Of a stretch of DNA of 24,040 bases, positions 6,930 to 24,040 are shown one piece after another. Each line of letters opens with the position of its first letter. Position 1 is the stretch's first letter. Under the pieces are notes generated by a model. The model was not told the DNA's origin. It ran no database searches and worked only from the letters and a program-made list of their open reading frames with translations. Origin of the DNA: a virus. Lineage: Duplodnaviria; Heunggongvirae; Uroviricota; Caudoviricetes. Position numbers and translations under genes: made by a program. The stretch is from positions 1-24,040 of the IMG/VR virus record IMGVR_UViG_2740892439_000001, one strand, 5' to 3'.

Positions 6930-6933
6930 TCCA

Positions 6934-7437
6934 ATGACTGCATATCTGTACCGGATGCCTGTTGGCATTGCCGGGACTATCTCTCGCCCGCAGGACTTAA
7001 CCGTCGAACCGGTGATCCTTAAATCCGCTAACGCCTTCGCTGCCTATGGTCTGGCTGGCAAATATGACGCTGACGGCTTTTTCGTGCCGCTGGCGGACGG
7101 TGACACCGCCGACAAGGTGAAGGGGATCTACGTTCGTCCGTATCCGACCACATCGCAGCCAGACATGGTTCGCCAGGTGGGGACGGATAAGAACTTCCCG
7201 GGTGACGCCATGAAGCGTGGCTACATGACCGTTAATCTCGGTTCTGATTTTGATGCCAGCACCATCAAAAAAGGCGACCCGGTATACGTTGTCGTCTCCA
7301 CTGATGAATCCATCAAAGTGCCGCTGGGCGGCTTCATGTCCACGTCCGTCAGTGGCAAAAACGTGGCGCTGACCAACGCCGAATTCACAGGGGCCGGTGA
7401 CGCTAACGGCAATGCAGAAATCTCCTGGAAGATTTAA
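6934..7437 (+). CDS. Capsid-associated cement/decoration-like protein
   Basis: 167 aa ORF immediately upstream of the major capsid gene, Gly/Thr/Val-rich beta-type composition; family assignment is tentative. Confidence 0.5.
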   Translation: MTAYLYRMPVGIAGTISRPQDLTVEPVILKSANAFAAYGLAGKYDADGFFVPLADGDTADKVKGIYVRPYPTTSQPDMVRQVGTDKNFPGDAMKRGYMTVNLGSDFDASTIKKGDPVYVVVSTDESIKVPLGGFMSTSVSGKNVALTNAEFTGAGDANGNAEISWKI

Positions 7438-7448
7438 GGAACAGACGA

Positions 7449-8390: not shown

Positions 8391-8400
8391 TAACCAGAAC

Positions 8401-8416
8401 GGCCCCGAAAGGGGCC
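8401..8416 (+). other. GC hairpin (ggcccc-gaaa-ggggcc) directly after the major capsid gene; putative attenuator or RNA stability element
   Basis: Perfect 6-bp G/C stem with a GAAA tetraloop 11 nt after the capsid stop; no downstream U-tract; the SD (aggaaa) and ATG of the next gene follow. Confidence 0.45.
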
Positions 8417-8431
8417 AGAAGGAAACTTGAA

Positions 8432-8821
8432 ATGGCGAAAGAAAAGCTGGTTACCATCCATGTTCACACCCCGTTTACGCTGACGCTCGGCGATCAGTCA
8501 AAACAGGAGTTTGGCCGGGGACGGCATAACGTACCGGAAGAGGTTGCGTCGCACTGGTTCACCCAGGCGCACTCTGAGCTTTCCGAAAGCGTGATTAGCG
8601 ACACCGATGATCTGCAACCCATTATCGACAGCCTGCAAGCACAGATTGCCGACAAAGATAAGCAGATTGTCGATAAAGATCAGCTGATTGCCGATCTGAA
8701 AGAAGCGCTGCTCAAGCTGCAAGAGCAGAACGACAGCCTGCAAGCGCAGATTGCTGCCGCCCAGACTGGCGGTAATGGGGCGAAAGATGCCAAAGAATCA
8801 AAGCCTGCCAACAGTAAGTGA
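8432..8821 (+). CDS. Hypothetical coiled-coil protein
   Basis: 129 aa; aggaaa SD; C-terminal heptad-like region with a repeated DSLQAQIA motif. Confidence 0.55.
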
Positions 8822-9194
8822 TTTTCGGCGCGACTTTCCACAGTTTGCTGACCCTGCCAAATATCCCGAAGCACAAATCCAGTTTCGTCTGAATCTGGCT
8901 GATGTGCTGCTGAGCGAAAACGTCACCGGCAAAGAGTTGTTTCCGTACTTTGTCGAGTTGTTCGTGGCTCACTACATGACGCTCTGGGCGGCAGATAGCC
9001 GGGCAATGCTCGTCGGCGGCCCGGGTGGCTCAACCAATGGTGTTCAGTCCTCCAAGTCCGTTGACAAGGTAAGCGTCAGCTATGACACCAGCGCGACGCT
9101 AAACCCTGACGCAGGCTTCTGGAATAACACCCGATATGGCGCTGAATTTTATCAGCTGATCACGATGTTCGGTGCGGGCGGTCGCCAGCTATGA
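8787..9194 (+). CDS. Head-tail connector-like protein (DUF4054-like)
   Basis: Likely start at ATG 8787 ([33 protein letters not shown]...); the track ORF begins upstream at 8751. Confidence 0.55.
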
Positions 9195-9778
9195 GTTTCA
9201 AAAGTGGTGTAACAACGAGGGTTGATAACGCTCAGGCCATTCTGGATGCGCTCCGGTCGCTAACCAAAAAGGATGTGCTGGTGGGCATCCCGGAAGAAGA
9301 CAGCGAGCGTGAGGATGTTCCGTTTGGTAATGCGGGGATCGGCTACGTCAATGAATACGGCTCACCGGCGCAAAATATCCCCCCACGCCCGCACCTGATC
9401 CCCGGCGTTAAATCGGTAGAGGAACAGACAGTGCCGCAGCTTAAAGCAGCGGCGCAGGCTGCGCTTGATGGTAATGCGGCGGGTGCAGAAAGAGCGCTAA
9501 ACCGCGCCGGAACGCTGGCCGCCAATGGCGTCAGGCGTTACATGACTATTACCGGCTTTACACCGCTTGCTGATAGCACCGTTGAAGCCCGCGCGCGTCG
9601 AGGTCGCAAAGGGGCGAAAGCTGAGTTAGCACGCAGATCGGCAGACGGAAAGCTTAATGCTATCAACCCAGATTCTGGTCAATTGATAAGCAATGAGAAT
9701 GTAAGGCCGTTGATTGATACCGGACAATACCGCAGAGCCATTACCCATGTTGTGAGGGATAAAGATGCCGACTCTTGA
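9191..9778 (+). CDS. Virion morphogenesis / head-tail joining protein
   Basis: 195 aa; ATGA stop-start overlap with the preceding gene; C-terminal [15 protein letters not shown] resembles the conserved end of HK97 gp10-like proteins (from memory). Confidence 0.5.
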
Positions 9779-10154
9779 TGTAACAGACGTGCTTTTTGAC
9801 CCCGATTTTTGCGACTTCAACCTGTGGGTAACGCGTCGCGCGCAAACGGTGGACGATGACGGGATCGGCAGCGACAGCGAAGTTAAAACGCAGTTTGCCG
9901 GGGTTGTTACTGTTGACCGCTCCCTGGAAAACCGCCGCATGCAGGCCGGGCAGGTTATCAGCGGCGCGATTCTCATCGTGACAACTGAGCGGCTGACGCA
10001 GGGACAGACTGGTCGTGATGCCGATATCGTGACGTATCAGGGCCGTGATTATCGTGTGACCTTCGTCGACCCGTATACAGCTTATGGGGCCGGATTCGTT
10101 CAGGCGCATTGTGAGTTGATGCCGTTTGATGGGGGAACTCCGGTTGAGCAATAA
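9765..10154 (+). CDS. Head-tail joining / tail completion-like protein
   Basis: 129 aa ORF coupled to neighbours in the structural module. Confidence 0.5.
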   Translation: MPTLDVTDVLFDPDFCDFNLWVTRRAQTVDDDGIGSDSEVKTQFAGVVTVDRSLENRRMQAGQVISGAILIVTTERLTQGQTGRDADIVTYQGRDYRVTFVDPYTAYGAGFVQAHCELMPFDGGTPVEQ

Positions 10155-10692
10155 CACCAGTACAGAGCGCGGATGGTTAATACCAACCAGTGGCGATCTG
10201 GATTATGACGAAGCGCTCGACAGGCTGTTAAGCCAGTGGATGCGTAACGTTTCCGGTCTGTCTGCCGGGATGGTTCGCCCGCGCTGGCAGAAAGAGCAGC
10301 CGCCACTGCTACCGGCTGAAACGAACTGGTGTGCGTTTGGGGTTATCGGATGGTCAGGTGATGACAGTCCGGCATTCACCAGACAGACCGATGATGGCTC
10401 TAAGCTCTGGCGGCATGAAACGATTGAGTGTATGGCTTCGTTTTATGGTCCGGCGGGGATGGTGTATGCGTCCCGGTTTCGTGACGGTATATCTGTACCG
10501 CAGAACAATGCAGCACTGAATGCGCTGGGGCTGTCTCTTGGCGATTACACAGGTCTGACCCCCTTCCCTGAACTTATTAATCAGCAATGGGTCCGCCGCT
10601 ACGATATGACGGTGCGCCTGCGCCGGAAGGTTGTGCGCGAGTACGGTATTAAATCGCTGGTGGAAGCACCAGTCATCTTTTTCGGAGATTAA
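10126..10692 (+). CDS. Tail-associated structural protein (hypothetical)
   Basis: 188 aa ORF immediately upstream of the sheath gene; start uncertain. Confidence 0.45.
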   Translation: MMGELRLSNNTSTERGWLIPTSGDLDYDEALDRLLSQWMRNVSGLSAGMVRPRWQKEQPPLLPAETNWCAFGVIGWSGDDSPAFTRQTDDGSKLWRHETIECMASFYGPAGMVYASRFRDGISVPQNNAALNALGLSLGDYTGLTPFPELINQQWVRRYDMTVRLRRKVVREYGIKSLVEAPVIFFGD

Positions 10693-10695
10693 GCT

Positions 10696-11841
10696 ATGGC
10701 ACAGGGCTTGCCTGTATCAAACGTTGTTAATGTTGATGTGATCATGTCGCCGCGTGCAGCATCAGGGCGAAATTTTGGTGCATTACTCATTCTCGGCCCG
10801 TCCACAATCATTCCGGTAAGTGAGCGCATTCGCCGTTATTCTGCCGCGGAAGATATTGGAAAAGATTTTGGCGTGGAATCACCAGAATATAAGGCTGCGC
10901 AGGTGTTTTTCTCACAATCACCGAAACCTCAGGAGGTTTTTGTTGGTCGTTGGGTGAAAACGAAGGGTGACAGCGAACAGGCCACGCCTGAGACGCTGGA
11001 GCAGGCTGTGAATGCCATGCTCGATTATACTTCATGGTATGGGCTGGGGATTGCAGACGATGAAGATATTCCGGATGCAGACTGGCTGAAAGTGGCTGCG
11101 GCGATCGAATCCTCTTCTGTAAGCCGTATTCTGGCGATTACGACAAGCGATGAGAAATGCCTGCAGACTGCATCCAGCGATGATTTGGCATCAAAACTGA
11201 AAACCGCCGGATATTCACGCAGTTTTATTCAGTATTCATCGGGTAATAAATACGCTGCGTTATCTGCATTTGGCCGGGTATTCACGGTTAATTTCAATGG
11301 CAGTAATACCGCGATTACGCTCAAGTTTAAGCAGGAGCCGGGTGTCGGGTATGAAACACTGACAGTCAGCCAGGCATCGGCACTTGATGCAAAAAACTGC
11401 AATGTATTCGTGTACTACCAGAATGATACGGCTATCCTCCAGCAGGGAGTGATGGCTAACGGCGATTTCTTTGATGAACGCCACGGCCTGGACTGGTTAC
11501 AGAATTATGTGCAGACCAACCTCTATAACCTGCTTTATACCAGCACCACGAAAGTTCCCCAGACTGAAGCCGGTATTACCCGACTGTTATCAAATGTTGA
11601 AAAATCACTGGATCAGGCCGTTCAGAATGGACTGATTGCTCCGGGCGTATGGAACGGGGGCGACCTTGGTCAGTTGTCATCAGGTGACACACTGCCCAAA
11701 GGTTATTACGTATACGCCCAGCCGCTGGATGAACAGGCACAATCAGAACGTGAAGCCCGTAAGGCTCCGGTGATTCAGGCTGCAATAAAACTTGCAGGCG
11801 CGGTTCATTACGCTGACGTACAGATTAACGTTGTTCGCTAA
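10696..11841 (+). CDS. Tail sheath protein (DUF3383-like)
   Basis: 381 aa; placed directly before the tube and chaperone genes as in contractile tails. Confidence 0.65.
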
Positions 11842-11851
11842 GGGGAAGTGA

Positions 11852-12292
11852 ATGTCTACCTATTCTTTTATGGATGTCACTGCGACGCTGACCGGCCCGA
11901 CCGGTTCGATTGACCTCGGGTACGGTTCTGCAAGTTCTGAAGAGGGGATTGTGGTTGCGATGGGCGGTCCTAAAAACACCATGACCATCGGTGCTGATGG
12001 TGAAGTGATGCACAGCCTCCATGCAGATAAAAGCGGGACGATTACCGTTAACCTTCTGAAGACATCACCGACAAATAAAAAATTGTCGCTGGCGTATAAC
12101 GCACAGAGCCAGTCTTCTGCCACATGGGGGAATAACGTTATCGTGATCCGCAACAAGGTCAGCGGCGACATCATCACGGCACGCAGTGTTGCGTTCCAGA
12201 AACAACCGGATAATGCCAACGCTAAAACCGGTAATACGATGCCGTGGGTGTTTGACTGCGGCAAGATTGACCAGGTTCTCGGGGAGTTTTAA
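11852..12292 (+). CDS. Tail tube protein (DUF3277-like)
   Basis: 146 aa between sheath and chaperone. Confidence 0.6.
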   Translation: MSTYSFMDVTATLTGPTGSIDLGYGSASSEEGIVVAMGGPKNTMTIGADGEVMHSLHADKSGTITVNLLKTSPTNKKLSLAYNAQSQSSATWGNNVIVIRNKVSGDIITARSVAFQKQPDNANAKTGNTMPWVFDCGKIDQVLGEF

Positions 12293-12295
12293 TAC

Positions 12296-12748
12296 ATGGA
12301 ATTCGAAATCAAAGGCGTGAAATATCGCGTGGCAAAACTCAGCGTTTTTGACCAGCTGAAAGTGACCCGCAAACTTCTGCCGGTACTGGCGGGAATGATG
12401 TCAGATTTCGGGAGCATTCGCTCCCGTTTGCCTGCTGACGGCAAAATCGACACCGTGAAATTCGAGCAGTTAAAACCGGTGTTTGAAACCATGCTCCCGC
12501 GTATCGCTGAGGAACTGTCTTCCCTGACCGAAGATGACACCAGTGCGATTATTCATCCCTGTCTTGCGGTGGTATCGCGGCGTCATATGGACGGATGGGT
12601 TCCGGTATTTACCCAGGGCGAACTGATGTTTGATGATATTGACTTGCTGGTCATGCTGCATCTGGTGGCGCGGGTGGTCGCCGATTCGCTGGGAAATTTT
12701 TTGCCTACACCCCTTACCAGCACGACGCAGAGCCTGCAACAGGGCTGA
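12296..12748 (+). CDS. Tail assembly chaperone (gpG-like, zero-frame product)
   Basis: 150 aa; immediately upstream of the tape measure gene; contains the slippery site near its 3' end. Confidence 0.7.
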   Translation: MEFEIKGVKYRVAKLSVFDQLKVTRKLLPVLAGMMSDFGSIRSRLPADGKIDTVKFEQLKPVFETMLPRIAEELSSLTEDDTSAIIHPCLAVVSRRHMDGWVPVFTQGELMFDDIDLLVMLHLVARVVADSLGNFLPTPLTSTTQSLQQG

Positions 12749-12936
12749 CGTTTAACAGCCTGCCGGACGGGCTGTCTTACCTTCTCAATCCGGTTGACGC
12801 CGGGTTAATTCCTTATACAGCACTTAAAGATGGCTCTGTCGATTTGTACGACATTGCTCTCTTGAATGACCATCTGGCGGTAAAAGCGGATAACCAGCGG
12901 CGCATTGAGAAATGGAGAGAGGATAATGAACGCTGA
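12296..12936 (+). CDS. Tail assembly chaperone frameshift product (gpGT-like), made by -1 ribosomal frameshift at 12691-12703
   Basis: After a -1 slip, the frame is open for 79 codons from 12697 to the tga at 12934-12936, exactly filling the apparent 178-nt gap before the tape measure ATG at 12926. Confidence 0.65.
12691..12703 (+). promoter_or_regulatory. Programmed -1 frameshift slippery sequence G_GGA_AAT followed by T_TTT_TTG
   Basis: In the chaperone frame the codons are ctG GGA AAT TTT TTG; both overlapping heptamers fit the X_XXY_YYZ pattern. Confidence 0.6.
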
Positions 12937-14911
12937 AACTATTAAAGATTTCCTCGTCTCGCTTGGCTTCAGTGTGGATGATGCTGGAGCAAAAAAATTC
13001 GGTTCTGTCCTCGCCGGTACAACTGCAAATGTCATCAAAATGGGACTGGCCGTTGAAGGAGCTGCACTGTCCGTGGTGGCCTTTACGGCTAAGATTGCCT
13101 CCGGCCTGGATAATCTTTACTGGGCGTCACAGCGCACTGGCGCGACAGTACAGGGAATTCAGTCTATTGGCTATGCGGTTTCGCAGGTTGGCGGCAGCGT
13201 GGACGCTGCGCGATCTTCTCTGGAAAGTCTCTCCCGGTTTATTCGTAACAATCCCGGGGCAGAGGGATTTCTGAATCGCCTGGGGGTACAGACACGGGAT
13301 GCCAGCGGCAACATGCGCGACATGGCCGCTATCTTTACGGGTGTCGGACAGAAGCTCAGCAGCATGCCGTATTACCGGGCTAACCAGTATGCGCAGATGC
13401 TGGGCATTGACGAAAATACCTCATGCGATGCGCCGGGGTGTGGGTGATTTCTCCGGGCAGTACAGCGCAATGGCGAAAGCTATCGGCTTCAATGCTGACG
13501 AGGCGGCCAGAAGCTCCAACAAATTCATGACCTCCCTGCGCGAGTTCGGCGCGATGGCAGGCATGGCCCGTGACAAAATCGGCTCTAATCTTGCTGGTGG
13601 TCTGGCGGGTTCGCTGGACACACTGCGCCGCCACATCCTCGATAACTTCCCGCGCATCGAGCAGACCCTGACGAAAGCCATAAAAGGCATTCTGGCGCTC
13701 GGAGACATCATCGGGCGGCTGTTCTTCAGGCTAATTGAGGGAACATCCAGCCTTATCACCTGGTGGCAATCGCTGGATAAGCAAACGCGGGAGCTCATCT
13801 CGCTGTTTGGCGCGCTGACGATTGCGCTGCGCATTCTGAACAGTACGTTCTGGATGTCGCCGATTGGCCTCATTACCGCGCTGGCGGCGGGGATTGCCCT
13901 TCTGTGGGAGGACTATCAGACCTGGAAGGAAGGCGGCGACAGCCTGATTGACTGGGGCAAGTGGAAGCCGGAGGTCGATGCCGCGCTGAAGATGGTTCGT
14001 GGCCTGAAAGGGTCTGTTAATGAACTGGCGAAAGCGCTGGCGAAACTGCTCAATATTGACCCCAAATCATGGTCCCTGAAGTGGGATTTCAGCAACTTCA
14101 TCGACCAGATGGGCGAATTCAGCAAAATGCTGAACATGATCGCCGACCTGCTCAACGCTATCAAAGATGGCCGCTGGGCTGATGCCGTCAGCATCGGCAA
14201 ACAGATACTTAATCAGGCAGCGAAAATCCGTCAGCGATGCCGATGGTTACAGACAGCGCTAACAGTACTGCCGACTGGATTAAAGAGCACTGGGGATTCG
14301 ATCCCCGCAGTGTGGGCCGGACGGTACGCGGCTGGTTTGGTGATGATGAGCCGGAACAATATGCACAGGCTACGAAACGAGGAGAACGGAATAACAATCC
14401 GGGAAACCTTAATTTTGCTGGTCAGGCAGGGGCTTCTCTTGAACGCCCGGGCGGGCGATTTGCCAGATTTGAAACTGCTTTTGATGGATTACGGGCTCTT
14501 GCTCGTCAGTTAATGCTGTACGCCGGACGGGGAATAAACAGTGTGGAGAAAATTATCTCTACCTGGGCACCTGCGTCTGATAATAACAACACAACTGCGT
14601 ATATCAGGGCTGTATCGCAACGACTGGGAGTGGATCCCCGGGCTGCCCTGAATATGAGCGATCCGCAAACCATGTCAGCATTGATGAGCAGCATTATCCA
14701 GCATGAAAATGGAAGAAATATCTATTCTCGAGAGCTGATTAATAAGGCTGCCGTGGCGGGAATTAGTGGCAAAATGACAGAGGTTAACCAGCAAAATACT
14801 TACCACATTTACGGTGGCGGAGATCCGCACGCTGTCGGTAATGAGGTTGCACGTCGGCAACAGTCTGCAAATGCTCAGGTCATGCGAAGTAATCAGGTGA
14901 GGGTGGGTTAG
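12926..14911 (+). CDS. Tail tape measure protein, split over three frames by two apparent 1-nt indels (near 13433-13438 and 14213-14237)
   Basis: ORFs 12926-13447 (frame 2), about 13437-14513 (frame 0) and 14237-14911 (frame 2) are contiguous. The middle part has hydrophobic segments and a coiled-coil-like feel typical of tape measure proteins. The junctions give continuous protein if one g is removed from ccgggg and one base is added near 14230. Confidence 0.75.
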
Positions 14912-15498
14912 TGGATATTCTCTCTACACTTTTTCATCAGCAGAGCAGAAAAATAGGAATGATTGTTCCCAGTGTTGTTATTTCAGAGAAGCATACAGAT
15001 ATGCTTGAAATAACAGAGCATCCGGTAGAGGTCGGGGCCGCTGTCGCTGATCATGCCTATAAAAAACCGTCAGAAGTGGTGATGGAGGTTGGTTTCGCCG
15101 GTGGCGGCGCATTGCTGGATTTTGCCAGTAATCTGACGGCTACCAGCCTGCTCGGCCTGAGTCCTCAGCAGACGTATCAGGAGCTACTGGATCTGCAGGA
15201 AAGCCGTATCCCCTTCGATGTGGTAACCGGTAAACGACTGTACAGCAACATGTTGATCCGGGCGCTGGAAGTGACGACGGACAAGACAACCGAAAACGTC
15301 CTGTCCGCCGTCCTCACCCTGAGGGAGGTCCTTATCTCCCGGACACAGCAGATTACCGTCGCGGATAAAACCAACATGAAGGAAGGGGCCAGCACGTCGG
15401 CGGTACAGAACAGCGGCAACAAAACCACAAAGCCTCCAGATACTTCACTGCTGAAAAGCATCACGGGTAACGTGGCGTCATTACTGGGGGGCGGCTAA
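14911..15498 (+). CDS. Tail/baseplate assembly protein (hypothetical)
   Basis: 195 aa; GTG start overlaps the tape measure stop (TAGTG). Confidence 0.5.
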   Translation: MDILSTLFHQQSRKIGMIVPSVVISEKHTDMLEITEHPVEVGAAVADHAYKKPSEVVMEVGFAGGGALLDFASNLTATSLLGLSPQQTYQELLDLQESRIPFDVVTGKRLYSNMLIRALEVTTDKTTENVLSAVLTLREVLISRTQQITVADKTNMKEGASTSAVQNSGNKTTKPPDTSLLKSITGNVASLLGGG

Positions 15499-15800
15499 TG
15501 ACAATTCAGGAAATTCCGCTGACAGCGGACAACCAGCAGTTCAGCATCGTCTTAGGTGGTGTTACCTGGCGGATTAGCATCATATGGCGCGATCTTTACT
15601 GGATTATGGACCTGCAGAACGACAGAGGGGAGCCGGTAATCTCCGGTATTCCTCTCGTCACTGGCGCTGATCTGCTGGCGCAGTACGCCTGTATGGGGCT
15701 TGGTTTTAAGCTGGTGGTGGTCTGCGATGACAACACACAGGATTATCCCTCGAAAACTGATCTGGGTGGCCGCAGTCATTTACTGGTATCAACGGAGTAA
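15498..15800 (+). CDS. Small tail/baseplate protein (hypothetical)
   Basis: 100 aa; TAATG coupling. Confidence 0.5.
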   Translation: MTIQEIPLTADNQQFSIVLGGVTWRISIIWRDLYWIMDLQNDRGEPVISGIPLVTGADLLAQYACMGLGFKLVVVCDDNTQDYPSKTDLGGRSHLLVSTE

Positions 15801-15802
15801 GC

Positions 15803-16867
15803 ATGTCACAGAACTGGATGAGACATTTCGAGCTGCAGCTTGTGGACGGGAACGGTCAGGGAATTGAGCTAAGTGATTTCAAAGTCACCTTTACGATCGA
15901 CTGGTTCAACATCAGCAGCGCGTCCCGGGTAGGGACTATCAAAATTTATAACCTCTCGGCAGATACTGTGAACCGAATCACCGGGAAGGAATTTTCGAAA
16001 GTGCGGCTGATTGCCGGTTACGACGGTATCGCGCCGGAGGTGGCGGCAAGCGACGTCGGGACCGTGCGCGAAGTCGACGCGGCAGATGTGGGCCAGAGTG
16101 ATGGCCGCAACTACGGGCTGATTTTCAGCGGAGAAATTCGCTACTCGGTCACAGGAAAAGACAGCCCTATTGATTCCTATGTCCTGATTCAGGCAGCAGA
16201 TACGGATCTGGCATTTGCCACCAGTATAACCTCACAGACGCTGGCTGCCGGTTACACGGTCGCTGATGTGAACCGTGCGCTGATGAAAGACTTCGAAGCC
16301 AAAGGCGCGACCGAAGGCCTGACGCCTGAAATGCCTGCTACTGTATTCCCCCGGGGGCGGGTGCTCTTTGGCATGACGCGGCATCTTATGGATAACGTAG
16401 CCGGGCAATGTGGCGCAACATGGCAATTCGTGGACGGTCAACGCCAGATGGTGGCGAATAACGAATATGTTCATGAAGCGATTGTGCTCAACAGCGCCAC
16501 CGGGCTTATCGGCATGCCGCAGCAGACTATCGGCAACGGCGTAAACGTCCGCGCGCTTATTAATCCGAACATCCGGGTTAATGGGCTCATTCAACTGGAT
16601 CAGGCTTCCGTATATCGCACCGCGTTGTCGAACAACGATATTGCGATGGCTGGTGGGCAGATCACCGACCAGAACACGGACGGAAATATCACGCTAAGCG
16701 GCACCACAGCACAACCTGCCAGCATCGCAACGGATGGCGTTTATATTGTGCGCGGGATTATGTACACTGGCGATACAAGGGGCCAGGCGTGGTACATGGA
16801 TATGATGTGCGAAGCGCGTGGCGCGGCGGATCTTCAAAGTCAAGGAGCAATGAATCGGTGGGGATAA
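15803..16867 (+). CDS. Baseplate hub-like protein
   Basis: 354 aa; position between the tape-measure-distal genes and the central spike. Confidence 0.5.
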   Translation: MSQNWMRHFELQLVDGNGQGIELSDFKVTFTIDWFNISSASRVGTIKIYNLSADTVNRITGKEFSKVRLIAGYDGIAPEVAASDVGTVREVDAADVGQSDGRNYGLIFSGEIRYSVTGKDSPIDSYVLIQAADTDLAFATSITSQTLAAGYTVADVNRALMKDFEAKGATEGLTPEMPATVFPRGRVLFGMTRHLMDNVAGQCGATWQFVDGQRQMVANNEYVHEAIVLNSATGLIGMPQQTIGNGVNVRALINPNIRVNGLIQLDQASVYRTALSNNDIAMAGGQITDQNTDGNITLSGTTAQPASIATDGVYIVRGIMYTGDTRGQAWYMDMMCEARGAADLQSQGAMNRWG

Positions 16868-16869
16868 GA

Positions 16870-17400
16870 TTGAATAAGAAAGCCATTTTTATTGCAATAA
16901 GTTTACTTGTTCCGATGTCGGGATTAGCCGCTCCTGGGAAGTATGAAAAAATGGCTGTTGATTTAATGGATCAGCAAAAGTTTACGCAGTGGCAACATTA
17001 CGCCTCTGCTACTCCTTTTTTCGCTATGAATGGTCGCAGATTCGCCATGACCATTGATGATTTCGCGGATATAGTCAGCAACTCCTTTCAAGAATGCGAA
17101 GATCTGGATGCCTACACCAATCGGAAAGGAACTACGGATGATTGTAAGTCCTATGTTTACAAAGGCATAAAGGAGTGGGTAAACCTCTCTCAAGATAAGT
17201 CTGTTAGCGATACAGCATGGAAAATGGGCCAGCGCTATGCTTCAACACACGTAATCCTATTGCCCATAAAAACGCATGGGATTTCAATGGGATGGCGGCC
17301 GGTATTCGCGTTGCTAAATCTCAAGGTTATTAAGTCATGGATGCGCCGAAAATCATCGGATCTTTCCCGTGTAAAAAAGTGGCTGGGCGATGATTTTTGA
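16870..17400 (+). CDS. Accessory secreted protein with N-terminal signal peptide (function unknown)
   Basis: TTG start with a ggtgggga SD 6 nt upstream; N-terminus (M)NKKAIFIAISLLVPMSGLAAPG is a typical Sec signal; mature part has two Cys; about 33 percent GC in the first 60 nt versus about 70 percent in sampled structural-gene sequence. Confidence 0.55.
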   Translation: MNKKAIFIAISLLVPMSGLAAPGKYEKMAVDLMDQQKFTQWQHYASATPFFAMNGRRFAMTIDDFADIVSNSFQECEDLDAYTNRKGTTDDCKSYVYKGIKEWVNLSQDKSVSDTAWKMGQRYASTHVILLPIKTHGISMGWRPVFALLNLKVIKSWMRRKSSDLSRVKKWLGDDF

Positions 17401-17558
17401 CGTCCATAATATTATGGATGAACTGTTGCCAATTGCGCTAATTTTAACAAAATAATACTGGTTAACGCATTTTTTGAACCATCTGTACACAGTAGTTGTC
17501 TATACTTTACCTTAAAGGTAAACTCTGCGCTCCACTGATGTTCACTATGGGAGGGGAT
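17401..17558 (+). promoter_or_regulatory. AT-rich intergenic region with promoter-like hexamers and two palindromes (17404-17417 and 17506-17522)
   Basis: ccataatattatgg is a perfect 14-bp palindrome; tttacctt-a-aaggtaaa has perfect 8-bp arms. Candidate sigma70 elements: ttgtct (17496-17501), 17-nt spacer, taaact (17519-17524). gggagggg SD precedes the ATG at 17559. Confidence 0.4.
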
Positions 17559-17798
17559 ATGAGGGAAATCGTTAATCGTTACTTAGCCGCTGCCGGTAGT
17601 GTTATGGACATTATGCCGACTACAGATTACTGGCAATATGCTGCTTCTGGATCTGATTGTCGGGCAATAAGAAGTGATGTTAAAGTCATTGCAAGTGACA
17701 TGAACAGAGTTATCAGGTATGAGTTCAAAACCCCGCAAGCAGGCGGCCGTTCTCAAAAAGCGTCAGGAAAACAAAGCGTCGCAAAAAGCCGTTCCTGA
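17559..17798 (+). CDS. Small hypothetical protein (accessory cassette)
   Basis: ATG at 17559 with a strong SD; about 80 aa; the last ~27 codons overlap the next gene and look low-complexity, so the true 3' end is uncertain. Confidence 0.4.
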   Translation: MREIVNRYLAAAGSVMDIMPTTDYWQYAASGSDCRAIRSDVKVIASDMNRVIRYEFKTPQAGGRSQKASGKQSVAKSRS

Positions 17799-18291
17799 TT
17801 CGGATGGTATCGACGAAAATATTGATTCCTCGGAATATGATGAGTCTCAGGAAGTAGTGGAAAAGCTGTCTGCAGTTGCCAACCTTGATCCTGAGCTAAA
17901 ATCGAAGTTAACACCTGAACTTCTTGAGAGAGTTTCTAAGAATCCGAAGGTTATTGCCATGTTTCAGCAGGAGTCTTTTCAGGGACCACTCCCACCTCCT
18001 GCTATGCTCTTACAATATAATCAAATATTACCCGGCGGCGCTGAGAGAATTTTCAGGCTAACCGAAAAAGAGCAAGAGCATAGGCATAAGACGCAAAGCG
18101 ATGCATTACTTGGTGCGGTTTCACGCGACAAACGTGGGCAATGGATGGGATTTTGCATTGCAATGGTAGTGCTTATAATGGCTGCGTTTTTTGCTAATCG
18201 CGGTAACACTTGGTTCGCAGGTACTCTTGCTACTTTAGATCTCGTAGGATTAACTACAGTGTTTGTTTATGGTAGGAAGAAACCTAAATAA
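17719..18291 (+). CDS. DUF2335-like membrane protein (charged N-terminal domain plus two C-terminal transmembrane helices)
   Basis: 190 aa; motif GPLPPPAMLLQYNQILPGGAERIFRLTEKEQEHRH recalled as the DUF2335 signature; hydrophobic stretches WMGFCIAMVVLIMAAFFA and WFAGTLATLDLVGLTTVFVY; followed by a terminator. Confidence 0.6.
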   Translation: MSSKPRKQAAVLKKRQENKASQKAVPDSDGIDENIDSSEYDESQEVVEKLSAVANLDPELKSKLTPELLERVSKNPKVIAMFQQESFQGPLPPPAMLLQYNQILPGGAERIFRLTEKEQEHRHKTQSDALLGAVSRDKRGQWMGFCIAMVVLIMAAFFANRGNTWFAGTLATLDLVGLTTVFVYGRKKPK

Positions 18292-18306
18292 TCCATACAT
18301 CCTTTC

Positions 18307-18329
18307 AAACCCGCTTCGGCGGGTTTTTT
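18307..18329 (+). terminator. Strong rho-independent terminator
   Basis: aaacccgc-ttcg-gcgggttt stem-loop followed by a T-run, 16 nt after the stop of the DUF2335-like gene. Confidence 0.75.
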
Positions 18330-18348
18330 GCTTTCTGGAGCCTACTAA

Positions 18349-19103
18349 ATGGCAGTATCTGACCAGACCCGCAGCGGCGACCTTGCCGAAACATTCAAAT
18401 CTGAACGGGAAACAACAAAGAACCAGATCCGAGTCGCTTTGCCTGGCATCGTCCAGTCATTCGATCCTGACGCTGTGACGGCGGTTGTGCAGCTTCTATC
18501 CGTTCGGTTGAAACGGATAACGACGGCAATCGCGTTACCAAAAATTACCCGCTGCTGGTGGATGTGCCGGTGGTATTCCCGCGCGGCGGAGGCTGTACGT
18601 TGACTTTTCCGGTAAAAGCTGGGGATGAGTGTCTTGTCGTTTTTGCCGATCGTTGTATTGATTTCTGGTGGCAGAGCGGCGGGATACAGGAGACGATTGA
18701 TAACAGAATGCATGATTTATCGGATGCGTTCTGTATCGTCGGTCCGCAGTCTCTGGCGCAGAAAATCAGCGGAATCAGCACCAGCGCCGCGCAACTGCGT
18801 ACTGATGATGGCGCTGCGTTTGTGGAAGTGGCCGCAGGCCATAACATCACGGTTAAAACCCCCGGCGCGCTGACGGCGACAGCAGAAGGAGGAACCACGA
18901 TCACATCACCCACCATCACGCTAAACGGCAACGTGACAATAAACGGGAATCTCTCTCAGGGGATGGGCGAAAGCGGCGGCACCGCGACGATGCTTGGCCC
19001 TGTCACGGTGACTAACGATGTAAAAGCTGGTGGTAAGAGCCTGATGACGCACACGCACGGCGGAGTACAGACCGGCGGCGGTAACACAGGAGCGCCTAAC
19101 TGA
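18349..19103 (+). CDS. Baseplate central spike protein (gp138 / Mu gp45 / P2 gpV-like), interrupted by an apparent 1-nt indel near 18493-18497
   Basis: N-terminal ...IRVALPGIVQSFDPDAVTAVVQ (frame 1) and YPLLVDVPVVFPRGGGCTLTFPVKAGDECLVVFADRCIDFWW (frame 0) together form one OB-fold spike domain; Gly/Thr-rich beta-helix-like C-terminus; ggag SD before the ATG at 18349. Confidence 0.7.
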
Positions 19104-19456
19104 TGCGATACAGACGTGAAGACGCCGATGGCGATTACACCTTTGGCAGCGGTGATGACACCTGGCTGATTAACTCACCGGAGGCCGTGGCGCAGGCGGT
19201 AAAAACGCGATTCGAATTGTGGTATGGGCAATGGTTTCTTGACACCACTGAGGGGACTCCGTGGATCCAGTCCGTACTCGGTAAGCAGAAGCCGGAAACC
19301 TACAACCTGGCGATCCGTAAGCGCATCCTCGAAACGCGGGGCGTTAAATCAATCCTCTCTTTCAATACGACGGTGGATACCACGACCCGACGTGTCATGT
19401 TTTCCGCTGAAATCGACACTCTCTATGGAATAACGACTGTTACATCGGAGGCGTAA
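19103..19456 (+). CDS. Baseplate protein (gp25 / W-like)
   Basis: 117 aa directly after the spike, TGATG coupling. Confidence 0.5.
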   Translation: MRYRREDADGDYTFGSGDDTWLINSPEAVAQAVKTRFELWYGQWFLDTTEGTPWIQSVLGKQKPETYNLAIRKRILETRGVKSILSFNTTVDTTTRRVMFSAEIDTLYGITTVTSEA

Positions 19457-20652
19457 TGGCTCTGAACCTTGATTCTCTCGGTTTATCTGCAAAGGTAACC
19501 GCGGAGGGGATCAGTGCGCCTGATTATCAGACGATACTCAGCACCCTGATTAGCTATTTTCAGCAGATTTATGGCAGTGATGCCTACCTCGAACCGGACA
19601 GCAAAGACGGCCAGATGGTCGCTCTGGTGGCTCTGGCCATTCACGATGCCAACAACACGGCCATTTCTGTTTACCGGTCATTTTCTCCGTCGACGGCGCT
19701 GGACGATGCATTAACCAGTAACGTCAAAATTAACGGCATCACTCGCCGTGCTGCGACAAACTCTACGGTCGATGAGCTGATTGAAGGCGAAGCCGGAACG
19801 TTAATCACAAACGGGTCTGTGAAAGATGCCAACGGTATCATCTGGAATCTTCCTGCTCAGGTGACAATTGGTATTGATGGGACGGTTATTGCTACAGCGA
19901 CGTGTTCTGTTGCTGGTGCTGTGGCCGCCCCTGCCGGGTCAGTCAATAAGATAAACACCCCGACACGTGGTTGGGTATCAGTAACTAACCCGCAAGCGGC
20001 TACGGTAGGCGTTGCTGCCGAAACAAATGCTGAATTGCGTGTCCGGCAATCACAGAGCGTTGCTTTACCGTCTCTGACGCCGTTTGAGGCGGTAGATGGC
20101 GCGATAGCAAATATCAGCGGCGTAACGCGACACAAGCTGTATGAGAACGATACAGATACCACTGATGCAAATGGCCTGCCTCCGCACTCAATCGCCGCCA
20201 TTGTAGAAGGTGGTGATGCGACGGTCATTGCAAACAGCATTCGTGGTGTGAAAGGGCAGGGCGTAACACCCTACGGTAGTACGGTGATTGTTGTGCCTGA
20301 TAAGTACGGAAACCCTCACTCGGTAGGTTTTTCAAGGCCGGTCGATGTACCCATTTACGTCAAAATCACTATCGAACCTCTTACGGGCTACACATCCCAG
20401 GTTGGCGAAGAGATAAAGGCGGCTGTATCTGCCTACATTAACTCACTGGCAATCGGCGCCAGCGTTCTTCTCAGTCGCGTTTACTCACCGGCTAACCTTG
20501 GTGTTGTCAGTGGTGGTAATGCCAGGTATTACGACATTACCGAGTTGCTGATCGGGACGTCTGCCGGTGGCGTAGCTGCGGCAAACGTGGATATTGCCTT
20601 TGACCAGTCAGCATCCTGTGCCGTCAGCAATATTAATCTGGTGGTCTCATGA
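19456..20652 (+). CDS. Baseplate J-like protein
   Basis: 398 aa; position after the gp25-like gene; size and order match J / gp47-like baseplate wedge proteins. Confidence 0.6.
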   Translation: MALNLDSLGLSAKVTAEGISAPDYQTILSTLISYFQQIYGSDAYLEPDSKDGQMVALVALAIHDANNTAISVYRSFSPSTALDDALTSNVKINGITRRAATNSTVDELIEGEAGTLITNGSVKDANGIIWNLPAQVTIGIDGTVIATATCSVAGAVAAPAGSVNKINTPTRGWVSVTNPQAATVGVAAETNAELRVRQSQSVALPSLTPFEAVDGAIANISGVTRHKLYENDTDTTDANGLPPHSIAAIVEGGDATVIANSIRGVKGQGVTPYGSTVIVVPDKYGNPHSVGFSRPVDVPIYVKITIEPLTGYTSQVGEEIKAAVSAYINSLAIGASVLLSRVYSPANLGVVSGGNARYYDITELLIGTSAGGVAAANVDIAFDQSASCAVSNINLVVS

Positions 20653-21422
20653 GCAGATACACTGACCGCATAACAAACTACCACGCCGGTAAACCAAAGT
20701 TCTTTGCACACGTTGATCTGTCCACCAGGCCACTGAGCGATGTTTCCGATGCAATGTCACGGCTAATACCCGATTTTGATATTGATACCGCCATTGGCGT
20801 GCAGCTTGACGTTGTAGGCGAATGGGTTGGTCGTTCCCGTCGCGTGGCAACACCGGTAACCGGGATTTATTTTTCGTGGGACACCGAACGGGTTGGCTGG
20901 GATCAGGGGGTCTGGCAGGGACCATATGACCCAAACGACGGTTTTATCGATCTAAGCGATGAAATATATCGGCTAATGCTGAAGGTGAAAGTGGCAATAA
21001 ACAACTGGGATGGTCAGAACGATTCGCTGCCTTCAATTCTTGATGCCGCCCTTGCCGGGTCCGGGATCCGCATGGCTATTGTCGACAACCAGGATATGTC
21101 GATTTCCATCTGGATACTCGGTGACCCATCGGTAGCCCTAAGTGAAATAGACCGGTTAATTCTGGATAGCGCCGTCAATAAAGGCCCCTTTATCGCATTA
21201 CCGGCAGGTTACGTGCCTTCGCGCTATGACATTAACCCGATTGACCAGGTTAACAGCGAGCTATGGTGGGCGATTCGGAACGGTTATATGACGGTTAAAG
21301 CCGCAGGGGTTCGTGTCCGTGAAATAGAGACCGTCAGTGATGGTTATCAGTTTTTTGGCTTCGATATCGAAAATGACTATATCGCTGGCTTCGACCGCGG
21401 GTCATGGGGAGAGAGATTTTAA
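20649..21422 (+). CDS. Baseplate/tail protein (DUF2612-like)
   Basis: 257 aa; ATGA coupling; position between the J-like and tail fiber genes. Confidence 0.5.
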   Translation: MSRYTDRITNYHAGKPKFFAHVDLSTRPLSDVSDAMSRLIPDFDIDTAIGVQLDVVGEWVGRSRRVATPVTGIYFSWDTERVGWDQGVWQGPYDPNDGFIDLSDEIYRLMLKVKVAINNWDGQNDSLPSILDAALAGSGIRMAIVDNQDMSISIWILGDPSVALSEIDRLILDSAVNKGPFIALPAGYVPSRYDINPIDQVNSELWWAIRNGYMTVKAAGVRVREIETVSDGYQFFGFDIENDYIAGFDRGSWGERF

Positions 21423-22291
21423 TGGCGACTAACGATTTTAAACCCTTCGCTACTGGTAGCGGGGCAAACGTATTATCACAGGCTGATTATGAAGCGCTAT
21501 CTGTACTGGCATCTGGTTTTCTTTCCGGCAAAGCCTCGTCAGCACAAGTAAATAAAGCACTACGGCAATCCTCTACAATTGCTGCCGTCCTTGCACAATT
21601 CATGGCGGATAGCACAGGAAGCGATGTCCTGGATAATGGGAACATTGCCACGTTACTAAATATTCTCAAGTCCGCACTTAATAATCAGGCAGAAGGACGC
21701 CTGCTCCGCATTCAGGTTTTTACCGCTAGCGGAGCATGGGTAAAAACTGCTGGCACTAAAAAAGTCAGAATTAAAGCATGGGGTGCAGGCGGTGGGGGTA
21801 AGGGAACAGACGTCGCAGGGACTGGTGCACCTAGTGGGGCGGGTGGTGCATATGTTGAGGGATTATATGACGTAAGCACCATTAATGGGGCGAATATCGT
21901 TATTGGCGCTGGTGGCGCGGCAGTTGCAGCAGGGAATGCAGGGGATGGCGGTGATGGGGGAGACACTACCATTACCGCGTTGGGTATCTCTGCTGGCGGT
22001 GGTAAGGGGGGAAAGTCTGCTGGTAATTCTGCTGGCGGAATTCCGGGAGCTCCATCTGTTGGGACAATATTCTCAGTGGCTGGTCAGGGAGGACAGGGAG
22101 GATCAGGTGTAAGCCTGGGTGGTGTAGGTGGCGCATCGCACAGTAGTTATGGTGGCCTTCCACACGTTAGTTCATCCGGTGATGATGGATTTTTCCCTGG
22201 TGGAGGTGGTGCTGGCGCATCATATGACTCAATCGCCAGGGCATCAGGGAAGGGCGCTAACGGCTATGTCATCATTGAGGAGTACGCATAA
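21422..22291 (+). CDS. Tail fiber protein with glycine-rich C-terminal domain
   Basis: Start at ATG 21422 (MATNDFKPFATGSGANVLSQADYEAL is a typical tail fiber N-terminus); residues ~120-280 are mostly Gly/Ala/Ser. Confidence 0.65.
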   Translation: MATNDFKPFATGSGANVLSQADYEALSVLASGFLSGKASSAQVNKALRQSSTIAAVLAQFMADSTGSDVLDNGNIATLLNILKSALNNQAEGRLLRIQVFTASGAWVKTAGTKKVRIKAWGAGGGGKGTDVAGTGAPSGAGGAYVEGLYDVSTINGANIVIGAGGAAVAAGNAGDGGDGGDTTITALGISAGGGKGGKSAGNSAGGIPGAPSVGTIFSVAGQGGQGGSGVSLGGVGGASHSSYGGLPHVSSSGDDGFFPGGGGAGASYDSIARASGKGANGYVIIEEYA

Positions 22292-22488
22292 TGGCAGGTA
22301 ATTACGCAGTCATTGAAAGTGGAATAGTTAAAAACATCATAATTGCGGAAAGCGGTTATGAATATGATGGTGCTGAACTTATCGAATATCCTGAAAGTGT
22401 ATTTTGCCAGCCTGGGATGTTTTATAACAAGGCAGACGGGCTATTTTACGATGATAAAGAATATTCAAAAATAAATAGCAAGAATTAA
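22291..22488 (+). CDS. Small hypothetical protein downstream of the tail fiber (possible fiber assembly/accessory factor)
   Basis: 65 aa, TAATG coupling, AT-rich. Confidence 0.4.
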   Translation: MAGNYAVIESGIVKNIIIAESGYEYDGAELIEYPESVFCQPGMFYNKADGLFYDDKEYSKINSKN

Positions 22489-22512
22489 GTCACTAAATTA
22501 CCAGAAAGCAAA

Positions 22513-22534
22513 CTGACCTTATGGTCGGTTTTTT
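22513..22534 (+). terminator. Putative intrinsic terminator
   Basis: ctgacc-ttat-ggtcgg stem (6 bp with one G-U) followed by ttttttatt. Confidence 0.45.
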
Positions 22535-22546
22535 ATTGGGGCGACC

Positions 22547-24040
22547 ATGAGTGAATACGATACCGGCAATCCTGTGCCGTCTGCATCCATGCCTGATGCA
22601 TGGGATAATATGCAGTCTATTGACAAGTTCGTTAATAGCAGTGATGAAACCATTACCACACGCACAGGCAAACAGTTAGATACTTTGCATGGCGTTAATG
22701 TTAAAGCGGACAACCAGCTAACGCAGCAGCAAGCAGATTTTGAAACCTCGCAAGAAGAAAGGGATGCTGTAGTTGAGGAAACCAGGCAGAACCTGATCCC
22801 TCTCAGCCGGCAGTACATGACGCTGGCGGCGGCACAGGCAGATATTGCTAATATACCTGTTAATTCGTTCACATATGTGCGGGATCAGTCTGGTGATGCT
22901 CTGGCGTTAGAGTACAAAAACGTAGAGGGCACTTTAACGGCTACTGGTCGTAAAATGCCATCACAGCAATCTGTAGATGATGTTTATGCTTTCATAGCTG
23001 ATAACGATATATTGTCTCCTGGTAGAAATATTTATAATTATCGTAAATCAATTGATGGCAAATACCTTAATGAACAGGGTGTTATAAGTGACAACCCGAT
23101 ATATTTCCTTTCTGATTACATGATGGTAAGTCCTGCAATGCAGGTGGCATCAAATTACAACTTGAGATTTGTACACTTTTTCGATGAACAGAATAACCTA
23201 CTAAGCTATTTAACTTTTGTCACGCAGTTTACAACACCATCAAACGCTCGTTATATACGTATCACTGGAGGAATTGACTCCAAAACCCTTTTGCAAATAG
23301 AGGCAGGGCCATTAAAAACCGCGTTTAAATATTATCGTAAATATATTTCTGAAACTCTCCCTGATGGAACTCCAGTTTCAGCAAAAAAAATAATGGGAGT
23401 AACTCCTGGGAAAAACAAGTTTAACAAGGCAACAGCAACGCAGGGATACGCAATTAATGAAAATGGAGAGCTAATCGTTGCCTCAACTTACTTTGTCTCA
23501 GACTACATTAAAGTCACTGCCGGCGGAACATTGAGGCCTTCCCAGCCAGCGCGATATATTAACTTTTATGATGCCAATAAAACATGGCTGTCGTCTCTCC
23601 AGAATCAAAATGGGGCGTTCGCAGTGCCTTCCTCTGCGGCATATCTTCGCATTTCAGTGCTGCTTGCGAGAATCGATTACTTCCAGATTGAGGTTGGAAG
23701 TAAGATGACAGCCTACGAGCCTTACTCACTCACGGCAGCAACTTCGCTTGACGGTGATGGGTTAAAGTATCCGGTGAATGAGCCAGATATCTATAGTATT
23801 GGCCTGTTCAATGCTGGAAAGAATATTTATAACCCCTATACACTGACCGCTGGTTATATCGATGAGAATGGTTTTGTTGTTCCGGGTGGAACGACATATA
23901 AATTTTCTGACTATCTTCCAGTTAAAGCATCAACGGGGTATGTAGGAAATAAAAGCATGCGCTTCATAAACATTTATGATGCGGATAAAGCGTTTATTTC
24001 GACTCTTACCAGCACGACAACATTCACAACCCCGTCTAAT
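22547..24040 (+). CDS. Distal tail fiber / receptor-binding-like protein, 3'-truncated by the window end, with tandem ~130-aa repeats
   Basis: Hand translation from ATG 22547 is open to 24040 (498 codons); absent from the ORF track, which appears to list only ORFs with an in-window stop. About 37 percent GC in a sampled 60-nt stretch. Repeats start near 23057, 23444 and 23849. Confidence 0.6.
   Translation, partial: MSEYDTGNPVPSASMPDAWDNMQSIDKFVNSSDETITTRTGKQLDTLHGVNVKADNQLTQQQADFETSQEERDAVVEETRQNLIPLSRQYMTLAAAQADIANIPVNSFTYVRDQSGDALALEYKNVEGTLTATGRKMPSQQSVDDVYAFIADNDILSPGRNIYNYRKSIDGKYLNEQGVISDNPIYFLSDYMMVSPAMQVASNYNLRFVHFFDEQNNLLSYLTFVTQFTTPSNARYIRITGGIDSKTLLQIEAGPLKTAFKYYRKYISETLPDGTPVSAKKIMGVTPGKNKFNKATATQGYAINENGELIVASTYFVSDYIKVTAGGTLRPSQPARYINFYDANKTWLSSLQNQNGAFAVPSSAAYLRISVLLARIDYFQIEVGSKMTAYEPYSLTAATSLDGDGLKYPVNEPDIYSIGLFNAGKNIYNPYTLTAGYIDENGFVVPGGTTYKFSDYLPVKASTGYVGNKSMRFINIYDADKAFISTLTSTTTFTTPSN

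What the first reader, a model, noticed from the sequence alone, without database searches (positions are those of the whole stretch)
18486..18500. Central spike gene carries a frame change inside its N-terminal domain
The N-terminal 47 residues (frame 1) and the following YPLLVDVPVVFPRGGGCTLTF... (frame 0) are halves of one spike OB-fold domain, but the frames switch at about 18493-18497 (cagcttctatcc). Restoring one t (cagctttctatc) would give ...TAVVQLSIRSVETDNDGNRVTKNYPLL.... The frame-1 continuation (LLSVRLKRITTAIALPKITRCWWMCRWYSRAAEAVR) is not protein-like.
Basis: partly seen in the sequence, partly recalled or inferred. Interest (0 to 1): 0.45.

Follow-up and report, generated by a model that had tools for sequence, protein, structure and literature searches.

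The report
Sequencing-error frameshift in phage spike gene
The break in this prophage tail-spike gene is in the deposited sequence, but it is almost certainly a one-base undercall by Ion Torrent sequencing rather than biology, so the finding is ordinary.

Summary
The frame change is in the sequence. ORF 18349..18603 carries the first 48 spike residues and then runs out of frame. The rest of the gene is open in another frame from 18471 to the stop at 19103. Every relative examined has one 756-nt, 251-aa gene for a central spike (N-terminal OB-fold domain, beta-helix, HxH apex). The window lacks one C of a CC pair at 18493 (CAGCCTTCT became CAGCTTCT).

The window is the whole contig JUDV01000059.1 of E. 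coli RCE01. It was sequenced on Ion Torrent PGM and assembled with MIRA. The authors state that homopolymer errors cause artificial frameshifts and that their corrector removes only part of them.

An independent re-assembly of run SRR1599274 matches window 6858..21355 with zero substitutions. It has the C and an intact spike identical to my repaired protein. It also has one-base losses of its own in other C/G runs.

The window carries eight further isolated one-base deletions, all in C/G runs of 2-3 bases. They break the large terminase, the tape measure and other genes. No slippery site and no conserved two-gene arrangement exist. Verdict: technical artefact, very low interest.

The parts
18349..19103 (+). 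Central baseplate spike gene. It is 755 nt as deposited and 756 nt / 251 aa once one C is restored.
   Evidence: Intact 756-nt orthologues lie at the same position in CFS3246, SEN34, EC31, APEC37 and 10 further loci. The repaired protein hits PF18352 and PF18946 and solved phage spikes.
18493..18493 (+). Site of the lost base. One C of a CC pair is missing (relatives CAGCCTTCT, window CAGCTTCT), which shifts the reading frame at codon 49 (Pro).
   Evidence: 14 relatives have the extra base; the Logan re-assembly of SRR1599274, which has zero substitutions against the window, has the C.
18349..18603 (+). N-terminal fragment ORF (84 aa): 48 genuine residues plus a 36-residue out-of-frame tail.
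   Evidence: The exact product is not on record anywhere. No other public protein carries this tail from this break point.
18471..19103 (+). C-terminal part of the spike in the shifted frame. The first possible start is GTG 18558, with no ribosome-binding site upstream.
   Evidence: sequence read.
18439..18743 (+). N-terminal OB-fold domain of the spike (residues 31-132 of the repaired protein). It is interrupted by the lost base.
   Evidence: PF18352, 146.9 bits against cutoff 26.1, profile positions 1-98 of 98.
19038..19100 (+). Apex motif with the HxH histidine cage (...MTHTHGGVQTGGGNTGAPN).
   Evidence: PF18946, 33.1 bits against cutoff 20.8. The role of the motif is described in bioRxiv 10.1101/2023.02.25.529910.
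13421..13425 (+). Two further one-base losses 4 nt apart in the tape-measure gene (ACCCTCATGGCG became ACCTCATGCG).
   Evidence: 12 relatives have both bases. The Logan re-assembly has both bases.
14216..14216 (+). Third one-base loss in the tape-measure gene (CAGGGC became CAGGC). Together the three losses split the 662-aa gene into three ORFs.
   Evidence: Repair restores a 676-codon open stretch.
3346..3346 (+). One-base loss in the large terminase gene (GCGCCGT became GCGCGT).
3555..3555 (+). Second one-base loss in the large terminase gene (CAGCCCTG became CAGCCTG).
   Evidence: 11 relatives have the extra C. Repairing both terminase sites restores a 546-codon open stretch.
17240..17240 (+). 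One-base loss in a 154-aa accessory gene (ATGCCTT became ATGCTT). It is shared with the Logan re-assembly.
   Evidence: 13 relatives have the extra C. The window and SRR1599274_50 both lack it.
919..919 (-). One-base loss near the 3' end of a DUF6953 gene on the minus strand (CCAGGCT became CCAGCT).
   Evidence: Four relatives have the extra base.
469..469 (+). One-base loss in a hypothetical gene downstream of the lysis genes (GAGCCTC became GAGCTC).
   Evidence: One relative at 99.6% identity (L005).

Best explanation
The gene is an ordinary central membrane-puncturing spike of a SEN34-like (Brunovirus-type) contractile-tailed prophage of E. coli. It has an N-terminal OB-fold domain that seats the trimer on the baseplate hub, a triple beta-helix, and an apex with an HxH metal cage. 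The frame change is not a property of the organism. The deposited contig lacks one C of a CC pair at 18493 because Ion Torrent reads undercall homopolymer length and the MIRA consensus kept the undercall. In the real genome the gene is most likely one intact 756-nt ORF. Shown here: the position and identity of the lost base; the intact gene in all relatives; the intact gene in an independent assembly with no substitutions against the window; the same type of loss at eight other places in the contig; and the platform and the authors' own warning. Inferred: that SRR1599274 is a read set from the same strain. This rests on zero substitutions over 14.5 kb plus a shared private deletion at 17240.
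For: (1) The window is the whole contig JUDV01000059.1 of GCA_001630855.1. The contig is 24040 nt, and L027 is identical to window 6858..24040. (2) The source paper states that JUDV00000000 is strain RCE01, sequenced on Ion Torrent PGM and assembled with MIRA 4.0. [quoted passage not shown] (3) Logan contig SRR1599274_50 matches window 6858..21355 with 0 mismatches and 7 one-base gaps. The window lacks a base at 13421, 13425, 14216 and 18493. The Logan contig lacks a base at 8328, 14074 and 14176. All seven are in C/G runs of 2-3. (4) That contig encodes an intact 251-aa spike identical to my C-repaired protein (P0032). (5) Against the closest other relative, L017, window 11723..21492 shows 5 one-base deletions and only 3 substitutions. 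Window 11723..18695 shows 5 deletions and 0 substitutions. Even in mismatch-repair-defective E. coli, indels are about 15% of point mutations, and their rate rises exponentially with run length (bioRxiv 10.1101/2021.08.23.457454). At that rate P(5 of 5) is about 8e-5. (6) All nine isolated indels in coding sequence are deletions, and all are in C/G runs of 2-3. The long runs in the window (A8, A7, T6, G6) are untouched. (7) None of the 17 of 5426 complete E. coli genomes that match a 61-nt probe has the deletion. There is no exact match in GTDB genomes, IMG/VR or JGI metagenomes.
Against: I could not inspect the reads, so the call at 18493 is not verified at read level. RCE01 is a meta-assembly of six colonies from one patient, so a real polymorphism among colonies is not formally excluded. 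I could not confirm from metadata that SRR1599274 belongs to RCE01. Classic Ion Torrent errors grow with run length, whereas here only runs of 2-3 are hit. This may be because the authors' corrector had already fixed the more obvious long-run errors. One deletion (17240) is shared by both assemblies, so not every loss in the contig need be an artefact.
Confidence: 0.93

Rival explanations
1. A genuine one-base deletion. The prophage in strain RCE01, or in some of its colonies, carries a real frameshift that inactivates the spike, as part of prophage decay or domestication. Translation would give an 84-aa fragment with a nonsense tail and no functional spike. Tails could then not be completed.
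For: The deletion is in the deposited consensus. RCE01 pools six colonies, so heterogeneity is conceivable. One other deletion (17240) is reproduced in both assemblies, which shows that some frameshifts in this prophage may be real. Loss of the spike is lethal for P2: a gene V amber mutant does not grow on a non-suppressing host.
Against: The independent assembly with zero substitutions has the C. The contig shows 5 deletions and 0 substitutions over 7 kb against L017, which is incompatible with known E. coli mutation spectra. Two deletions lie 4 nt apart in the tape measure. All losses are in short C/G runs, and both assemblies have private losses of the same kind. There are no nonsense mutations, IS elements or larger deletions, and gene order is complete. 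The platform is known for this error and the authors say residual errors remain.
Confidence: 0.05
2. A programmed -1 ribosomal frameshift or a genuine two-gene arrangement. The N-terminal and C-terminal parts would be made separately or joined by recoding.
For: Going from the frame of 18349 to the frame of 18471..19103 is formally a -1 shift, and the two frames overlap over 18471..18603.
Against: There is no XXXYYYZ heptamer in any phase in 18440..18603; the only run there is A5. All relatives, including ones 99.6-99.9% identical, encode one continuous ORF. The break lies inside a single domain. Frameshifted versions in other public assemblies are singletons broken at different sites. There is no ribosome-binding site before GTG 18558.
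Confidence: 0.01

Closest known systems
Central spike proteins of contractile-tailed phages (phi92 gp138, PDB 3PQI; P2 gpV; Pam3 gp20; E217 gp43/gp44 and relatives)
   Same: The architecture and genomic place are the same. There is an N-terminal OB-fold domain (PF18352), a beta-helix and a C-terminal HxH apex (PF18946). The gene sits between the baseplate hub and the sheath-initiator and Baseplate_J genes.
   Different: Nothing about the protein itself differs. Only the deposited DNA lacks one base. The match to the P2 V subfamily model TIGR01644 is below its cutoff (42.9 against 46.75 bits), so this is the gp138-like rather than the P2 V-like branch.
Homopolymer-length undercalls in Ion Torrent (and other flow- or signal-based) assemblies that fragment genes
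   Same: The losses are single bases inside mononucleotide runs and are deletion-biased. They are scattered through a contig and produce apparent pseudogenes. They are absent from an alternative assembly. The data producers acknowledge them, and the general phenomenon is described for error-prone assemblies in PMC12007338.
   Different: All nine events here are in short (2-3 base) C/G runs rather than in the longest runs. This may reflect the prior reference-guided correction (HomoHomo) that the authors applied.
Salmonella phage SEN34 (Brunovirus) and SEN34-like E. coli prophages
   Same: The window is collinear with them from terminase to tail fibre. The SEN34 spike gene SEN34_22 is 86% identical in DNA and 251 aa long.
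   Different: The cargo genes between hub and spike differ. The window has a DUF2335 gene, while many relatives add a YafO-family toxin.

Membership tests
gp138-like central spike (PF18352 N-domain plus apex) | N-terminal OB-fold spike domain above the Pfam gathering score | tested here: met
   On the repaired protein: PF18352, E 1.8e-43, 146.9 bits against cutoff 26.1, residues 31-132, profile 1-98 of 98.
gp138-like central spike (PF18352 N-domain plus apex) | C-terminal apex with the HxH histidine cage | tested here: met
   PF18946, 33.1 bits against cutoff 20.8, residues 231-251; sequence MTHTHGG. The motif is described.
gp138-like central spike (PF18352 N-domain plus apex) | Sequence similarity to experimentally solved spikes | tested here: met
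   9ndy_G 3.1e-13; 4ru3_A 1.8e-10; 8eon_F 2e-10; 3pqi_A (gene product 138) 2e-5 over residues 27-246.
gp138-like central spike (PF18352 N-domain plus apex) | Position in the baseplate module, next to the hub, sheath initiator and Baseplate_J genes | tested here: met
   Gene order in the window and in 12 or more relatives.
gp138-like central spike (PF18352 N-domain plus apex) | One uninterrupted ORF of about 250 aa | tested here: not met
   Not met in the contig as deposited. Met in all relatives and in the re-assembly of the same strain.
P2 gpV subfamily (TIGR01644) | Score above the NCBIfam curated cutoff | tested here: not met
   42.9 bits against cutoff 46.75.
Programmed -1 ribosomal frameshift | Slippery heptamer X XXY YYZ in phase within the frame overlap | tested here: not met
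   No such heptamer in any phase in 18440..18603.
Programmed -1 ribosomal frameshift | Two-frame layout conserved in relatives | tested here: not met
   All relatives have a single ORF. Broken versions elsewhere are singletons at other sites.
Sequencing or assembly homopolymer artefact | Data from a platform with homopolymer-length errors | tested here: met
   Ion Torrent PGM and MIRA 4.0. The authors report residual artificial frameshifts (PMC5517970).
Sequencing or assembly homopolymer artefact | Indel lies in a mononucleotide run and recurs in kind across the contig | tested here: met
   CC became C at 18493. There are eight more isolated one-base deletions, all in C/G runs of 2-3.
Sequencing or assembly homopolymer artefact | Not reproduced in an independent assembly of the same genome | tested here: met
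   SRR1599274_50 has 0 substitutions over 14.5 kb, has the C, and has private one-base losses of its own. Its identity with the RCE01 sample is inferred, not read from metadata.
Sequencing or assembly homopolymer artefact | Read pile-up shows mixed or undercalled run length at the site | not testable with these tools
Genuine prophage pseudogene | Mutation spectrum compatible with natural decay (substitutions far outnumber indels; larger lesions present) | tested here: not met
   5 deletions and 0 substitutions over about 7 kb against L017. The expected indel share is at most about 15%. Gene order is complete.

The most novel reading that the evidence does not exclude
The single C at 18493 is a real allele present in some of the six pooled RCE01 colonies. 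That would be a within-patient polymorphism in which an E. coli lineage in a Crohn's disease gut has knocked out the spike of a resident SEN34-like prophage.
Probability: 0.04. Interest if true: 0.15.

Novelty: not a real feature. Interest (0 to 1): 0.03.

Why it matters
It matters only as a caution. This contig would be scored as a defective prophage with broken terminase, tape-measure and spike genes. The organism most likely carries an intact, possibly inducible, SEN34-like myovirus. Anyone using Ion Torrent-era draft assemblies to count phage pseudogenes, infer prophage domestication or search for recoding sites will collect such false breaks. The practical lesson is to compare indel and substitution counts against the nearest relative before reading biology into a frameshift.

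Tried and rejected
(1) Programmed frameshift: no slippery heptamer in the overlap and no conservation. Rejected.

Rejected.

(3) Looking for the same deletion elsewhere: none in 5426 complete E. coli genomes, GTDB genomes, IMG/VR or JGI metagenomes. The exact fragment products are not on record.

(4) A homology search with the frameshifted 84-aa fragment found other broken copies. All are singletons broken at different positions, for example at the A5 run at 18540. This gave no support for a recurrent site.

(5) A tenth candidate deletion at 797 was dropped. Three other relatives agree with the window there, and the gap sat at the edge of an alignment.

(6) A Dcm/Dam methylation-motif explanation for the error contexts: only one of nine sites contains CCWGG. 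Dropped.

(7) Lee et al. 2012 (PMC3478608) could not be read. I used the mismatch-repair-defective mutation-accumulation counts as a generous upper bound on the indel share.

(8) I did not run a structure prediction. The Pfam and PDB sequence matches already settle the identity of the domain.

Full report
**1. The observation**

An ATG at 18349 is preceded by GGAG and by a hairpin-plus-T-run terminator at 18310-18330. It opens a frame that encodes 48 spike-like residues (MAVSDQ...DAVTAVVQ). That frame then continues as LLSVRLKRITTAIALPKITRCWWMCRWYSRAAEAVR and stops at 18603. A second frame is open from 18471. It encodes ...SIRSVETDNDGNRVTKNYPLLVDVPVVFPRGGGCTLTF... and stops at 19103. The first possible start in that frame is a GTG at 18558 with no ribosome-binding site.

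**2. What the gene is**

I repaired the gene with one base and searched it against Pfam.
- The N-terminal spike domain PF18352 matches residues 31-132 (146.9 bits, cutoff 26.1, whole profile).
- The apex motif PF18946 matches residues 231-251 (33.1 bits, cutoff 20.8).
- The two fragments match profile positions 1-37 and 38-98, so the break lies inside one domain.

A sequence search of the Protein Data Bank finds solved phage spikes. These include 9ndy_G, 4ru3_A, 8eon_F, 9b45_g, 7yfz_w and phi92 gene product 138 (3pqi_A, residues 27-246).

The neighbouring genes form a contractile-tail baseplate module: sheath, tube, tail chaperone, tape measure, Dit-like protein, plug, hub, then spike, sheath initiator, Baseplate_J and wedge. 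The whole window is collinear with SEN34-like prophages of E. coli and with Salmonella phage SEN34.

The P2 spike literature gives the mechanism (bioRxiv 10.1101/2023.02.25.529910). The OB-fold domain attaches the trimer to the tube and baseplate. A beta-helix follows, and an apex holds an iron ion in an HxH cage. A gene V amber mutant does not grow on a non-suppressing host.

**3. Where the frame breaks**

The gene is one ORF of 756 nt and 251 aa in CFS3246 (99.6% identical) and in SEN34 (86%). The alignment shows one gap in the window: relatives read CAG CCT TCT and the window reads CAG CTT CT. The lost base is one C of a CC pair at 18493, and the lost codon is Pro49.

The C-repaired protein exists exactly in public data. 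It belongs to a 90% cluster of 1240 members, and all 15 listed members are 251 aa. The T-repaired protein does not exist there.

**4. The break is not alone**

I compared the window with 25 related loci and kept only gaps that sit in otherwise well-matched sequence. Nine isolated one-base deletions remain:
- 469 (a hypothetical gene)
- 919 (a DUF6953 gene)
- 3346 and 3555 (large terminase)
- 13421, 13425 and 14216 (tape measure, split into three ORFs)
- 17240 (an accessory gene)
- 18493 (spike)

A tenth candidate at 797 was rejected. All nine are deletions, and all are in C or G runs of two or three bases. The one isolated one-base insertion (8427, seen against L007 only) is intergenic, and a two-base insertion at 22484, seen against L003 only, was not examined further. 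The long runs in the window (A8, A7, T6, G6) are untouched. Restoring the nine bases restores full-length open stretches for terminase (546 codons), tape measure (676 codons) and spike (251 codons).

**5. The pattern does not look like mutation**

Against the closest other relative, L017 (GCA_048082605.1), window 11723..21492 differs by five one-base deletions and three substitutions. Window 11723..18695 differs by five deletions and no substitution at all.

In mutation-accumulation data from mismatch-repair-defective E. coli there were 30,061 substitutions and 5,324 small indels. Indel rates rise exponentially with run length. With that generous 15% share, five out of five differences being indels has a probability of about 8e-5. 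Two of the deletions lie four bases apart.

**6. The source of the window**

I looked up the 180-aa product that carries the 17240 deletion. This returned two contigs.
- NCBI GCA_001630855.1 JUDV01000059.1 is 24,040 nt long, the exact length of the window. The fetched part is identical to window 6858..24040.
- The second is Logan contig SRR1599274_50.

A full-text search links JUDV00000000 to E. coli RCE01 in PMC5517970. The methods of that paper state the following:
- Sequencing was on Ion Torrent PGM and assembly was with MIRA 4.0.
- Reads from several colonies of one patient were pooled.
- The authors' corrector reduces artificial indels by a factor of about 2.5, so a good share remains.

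**7. The independent assembly**

SRR1599274_50 matches window 6858..21355 with zero substitutions and seven one-base gaps. The window lacks a base at 13421, 13425, 14216 and 18493. The Logan contig lacks a base at 8328, 14074 and 14176. All seven are in C/G runs of two or three.

The Logan contig therefore carries an intact spike gene, and its product is exactly my repaired protein. Two assemblies of what is evidently the same genome thus disagree only in homopolymer length, each with its own private losses. That is the signature of a read-level length error resolved differently by two assemblers. The deletion at 17240 is shared by both assemblies and absent from 13 relatives. It may be real or it may be a systematic error, and I leave it open.

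**8. Rivals**

- A real frameshift in the strain, or in some of the pooled colonies, cannot be excluded without reads. It is disfavoured by points 5 to 7. I give it about 0.05.
- A programmed frameshift or a two-gene layout is excluded for practical purposes, at about 0.01. There is no slippery heptamer in the overlap. All relatives have one ORF. The frameshifted fragments found in other public assemblies are singletons broken at different sites.
- The exact deletion allele was not found in 5426 complete E. coli genomes, GTDB genomes, IMG/VR or JGI metagenomes.

**9. Verdict**

The cause is technical. Nothing here is new biology. The spike is a standard member of a large, well-described family, and the break is best filed as not a real feature of the organism.

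Noticed in passing
window 469, 919, 3346, 3555, 13421, 13425, 14216, 17240: Eight further isolated one-base deletions, all in C/G runs of 2-3 bases. They break a hypothetical gene, a DUF6953 gene, the large terminase (twice), the tape measure (three times) and an accessory gene. On paper the whole prophage looks defective.
   Followed up: yes
window 17240: This deletion (ATGCCTT became ATGCTT) is the only one shared by the deposited contig and the Logan re-assembly, and it is absent from 13 relatives. It is either a real frameshift in a 154-aa accessory gene of strain RCE01 or a systematic error reproduced by both assemblers.
   Followed up: partly
window 12694-12700 (with ORF 12296..12748 and the -1 frame to about 12936): A canonical slippery heptamer A_AAT_TTT lies in phase near the end of the tail assembly chaperone gene. 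The -1 frame runs on through the DUF6889 segment that relatives annotate as a separate 50-58 aa gene. This is the usual chaperone frameshift between tube and tape measure, and it is a genuine recoding candidate in the same window.
   Followed up: partly
L026/L028 (Logan SRR1599274_50), equivalent to window 8328, 14074, 14176: The re-assembly has three private one-base losses of its own in C/G runs. These lengthen its major capsid call to 326 aa and split its tape measure into 384 and 296 aa. Neither assembly of this read set is free of errors.
   Followed up: yes
P0001-P0010; cluster of P0032: Other public assemblies hold singleton frameshifted N-terminal fragments of this spike, broken at different sites (for example at the A5 run equivalent to window 18540). 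Many intact copies are named 'translation initiation factor IF-2' in public records, which is a propagated misannotation.
   Followed up: partly
window 16870-18330: There is a variable cargo region between the baseplate hub and the spike. The window has a 190-aa DUF2335 gene (17719..18291) followed by a strong hairpin-plus-T-run terminator at 18310-18330. Many relatives also carry a YafO-family toxin gene or a DUF4282 gene at this place.
   Followed up: no
window 22526-24040: The contig ends inside an open reading frame that relatives annotate as a long SGNH/GDSL hydrolase, probably a tail fibre or spike with an esterase domain. The contig break falls in the most variable part of the prophage.
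   Followed up: no
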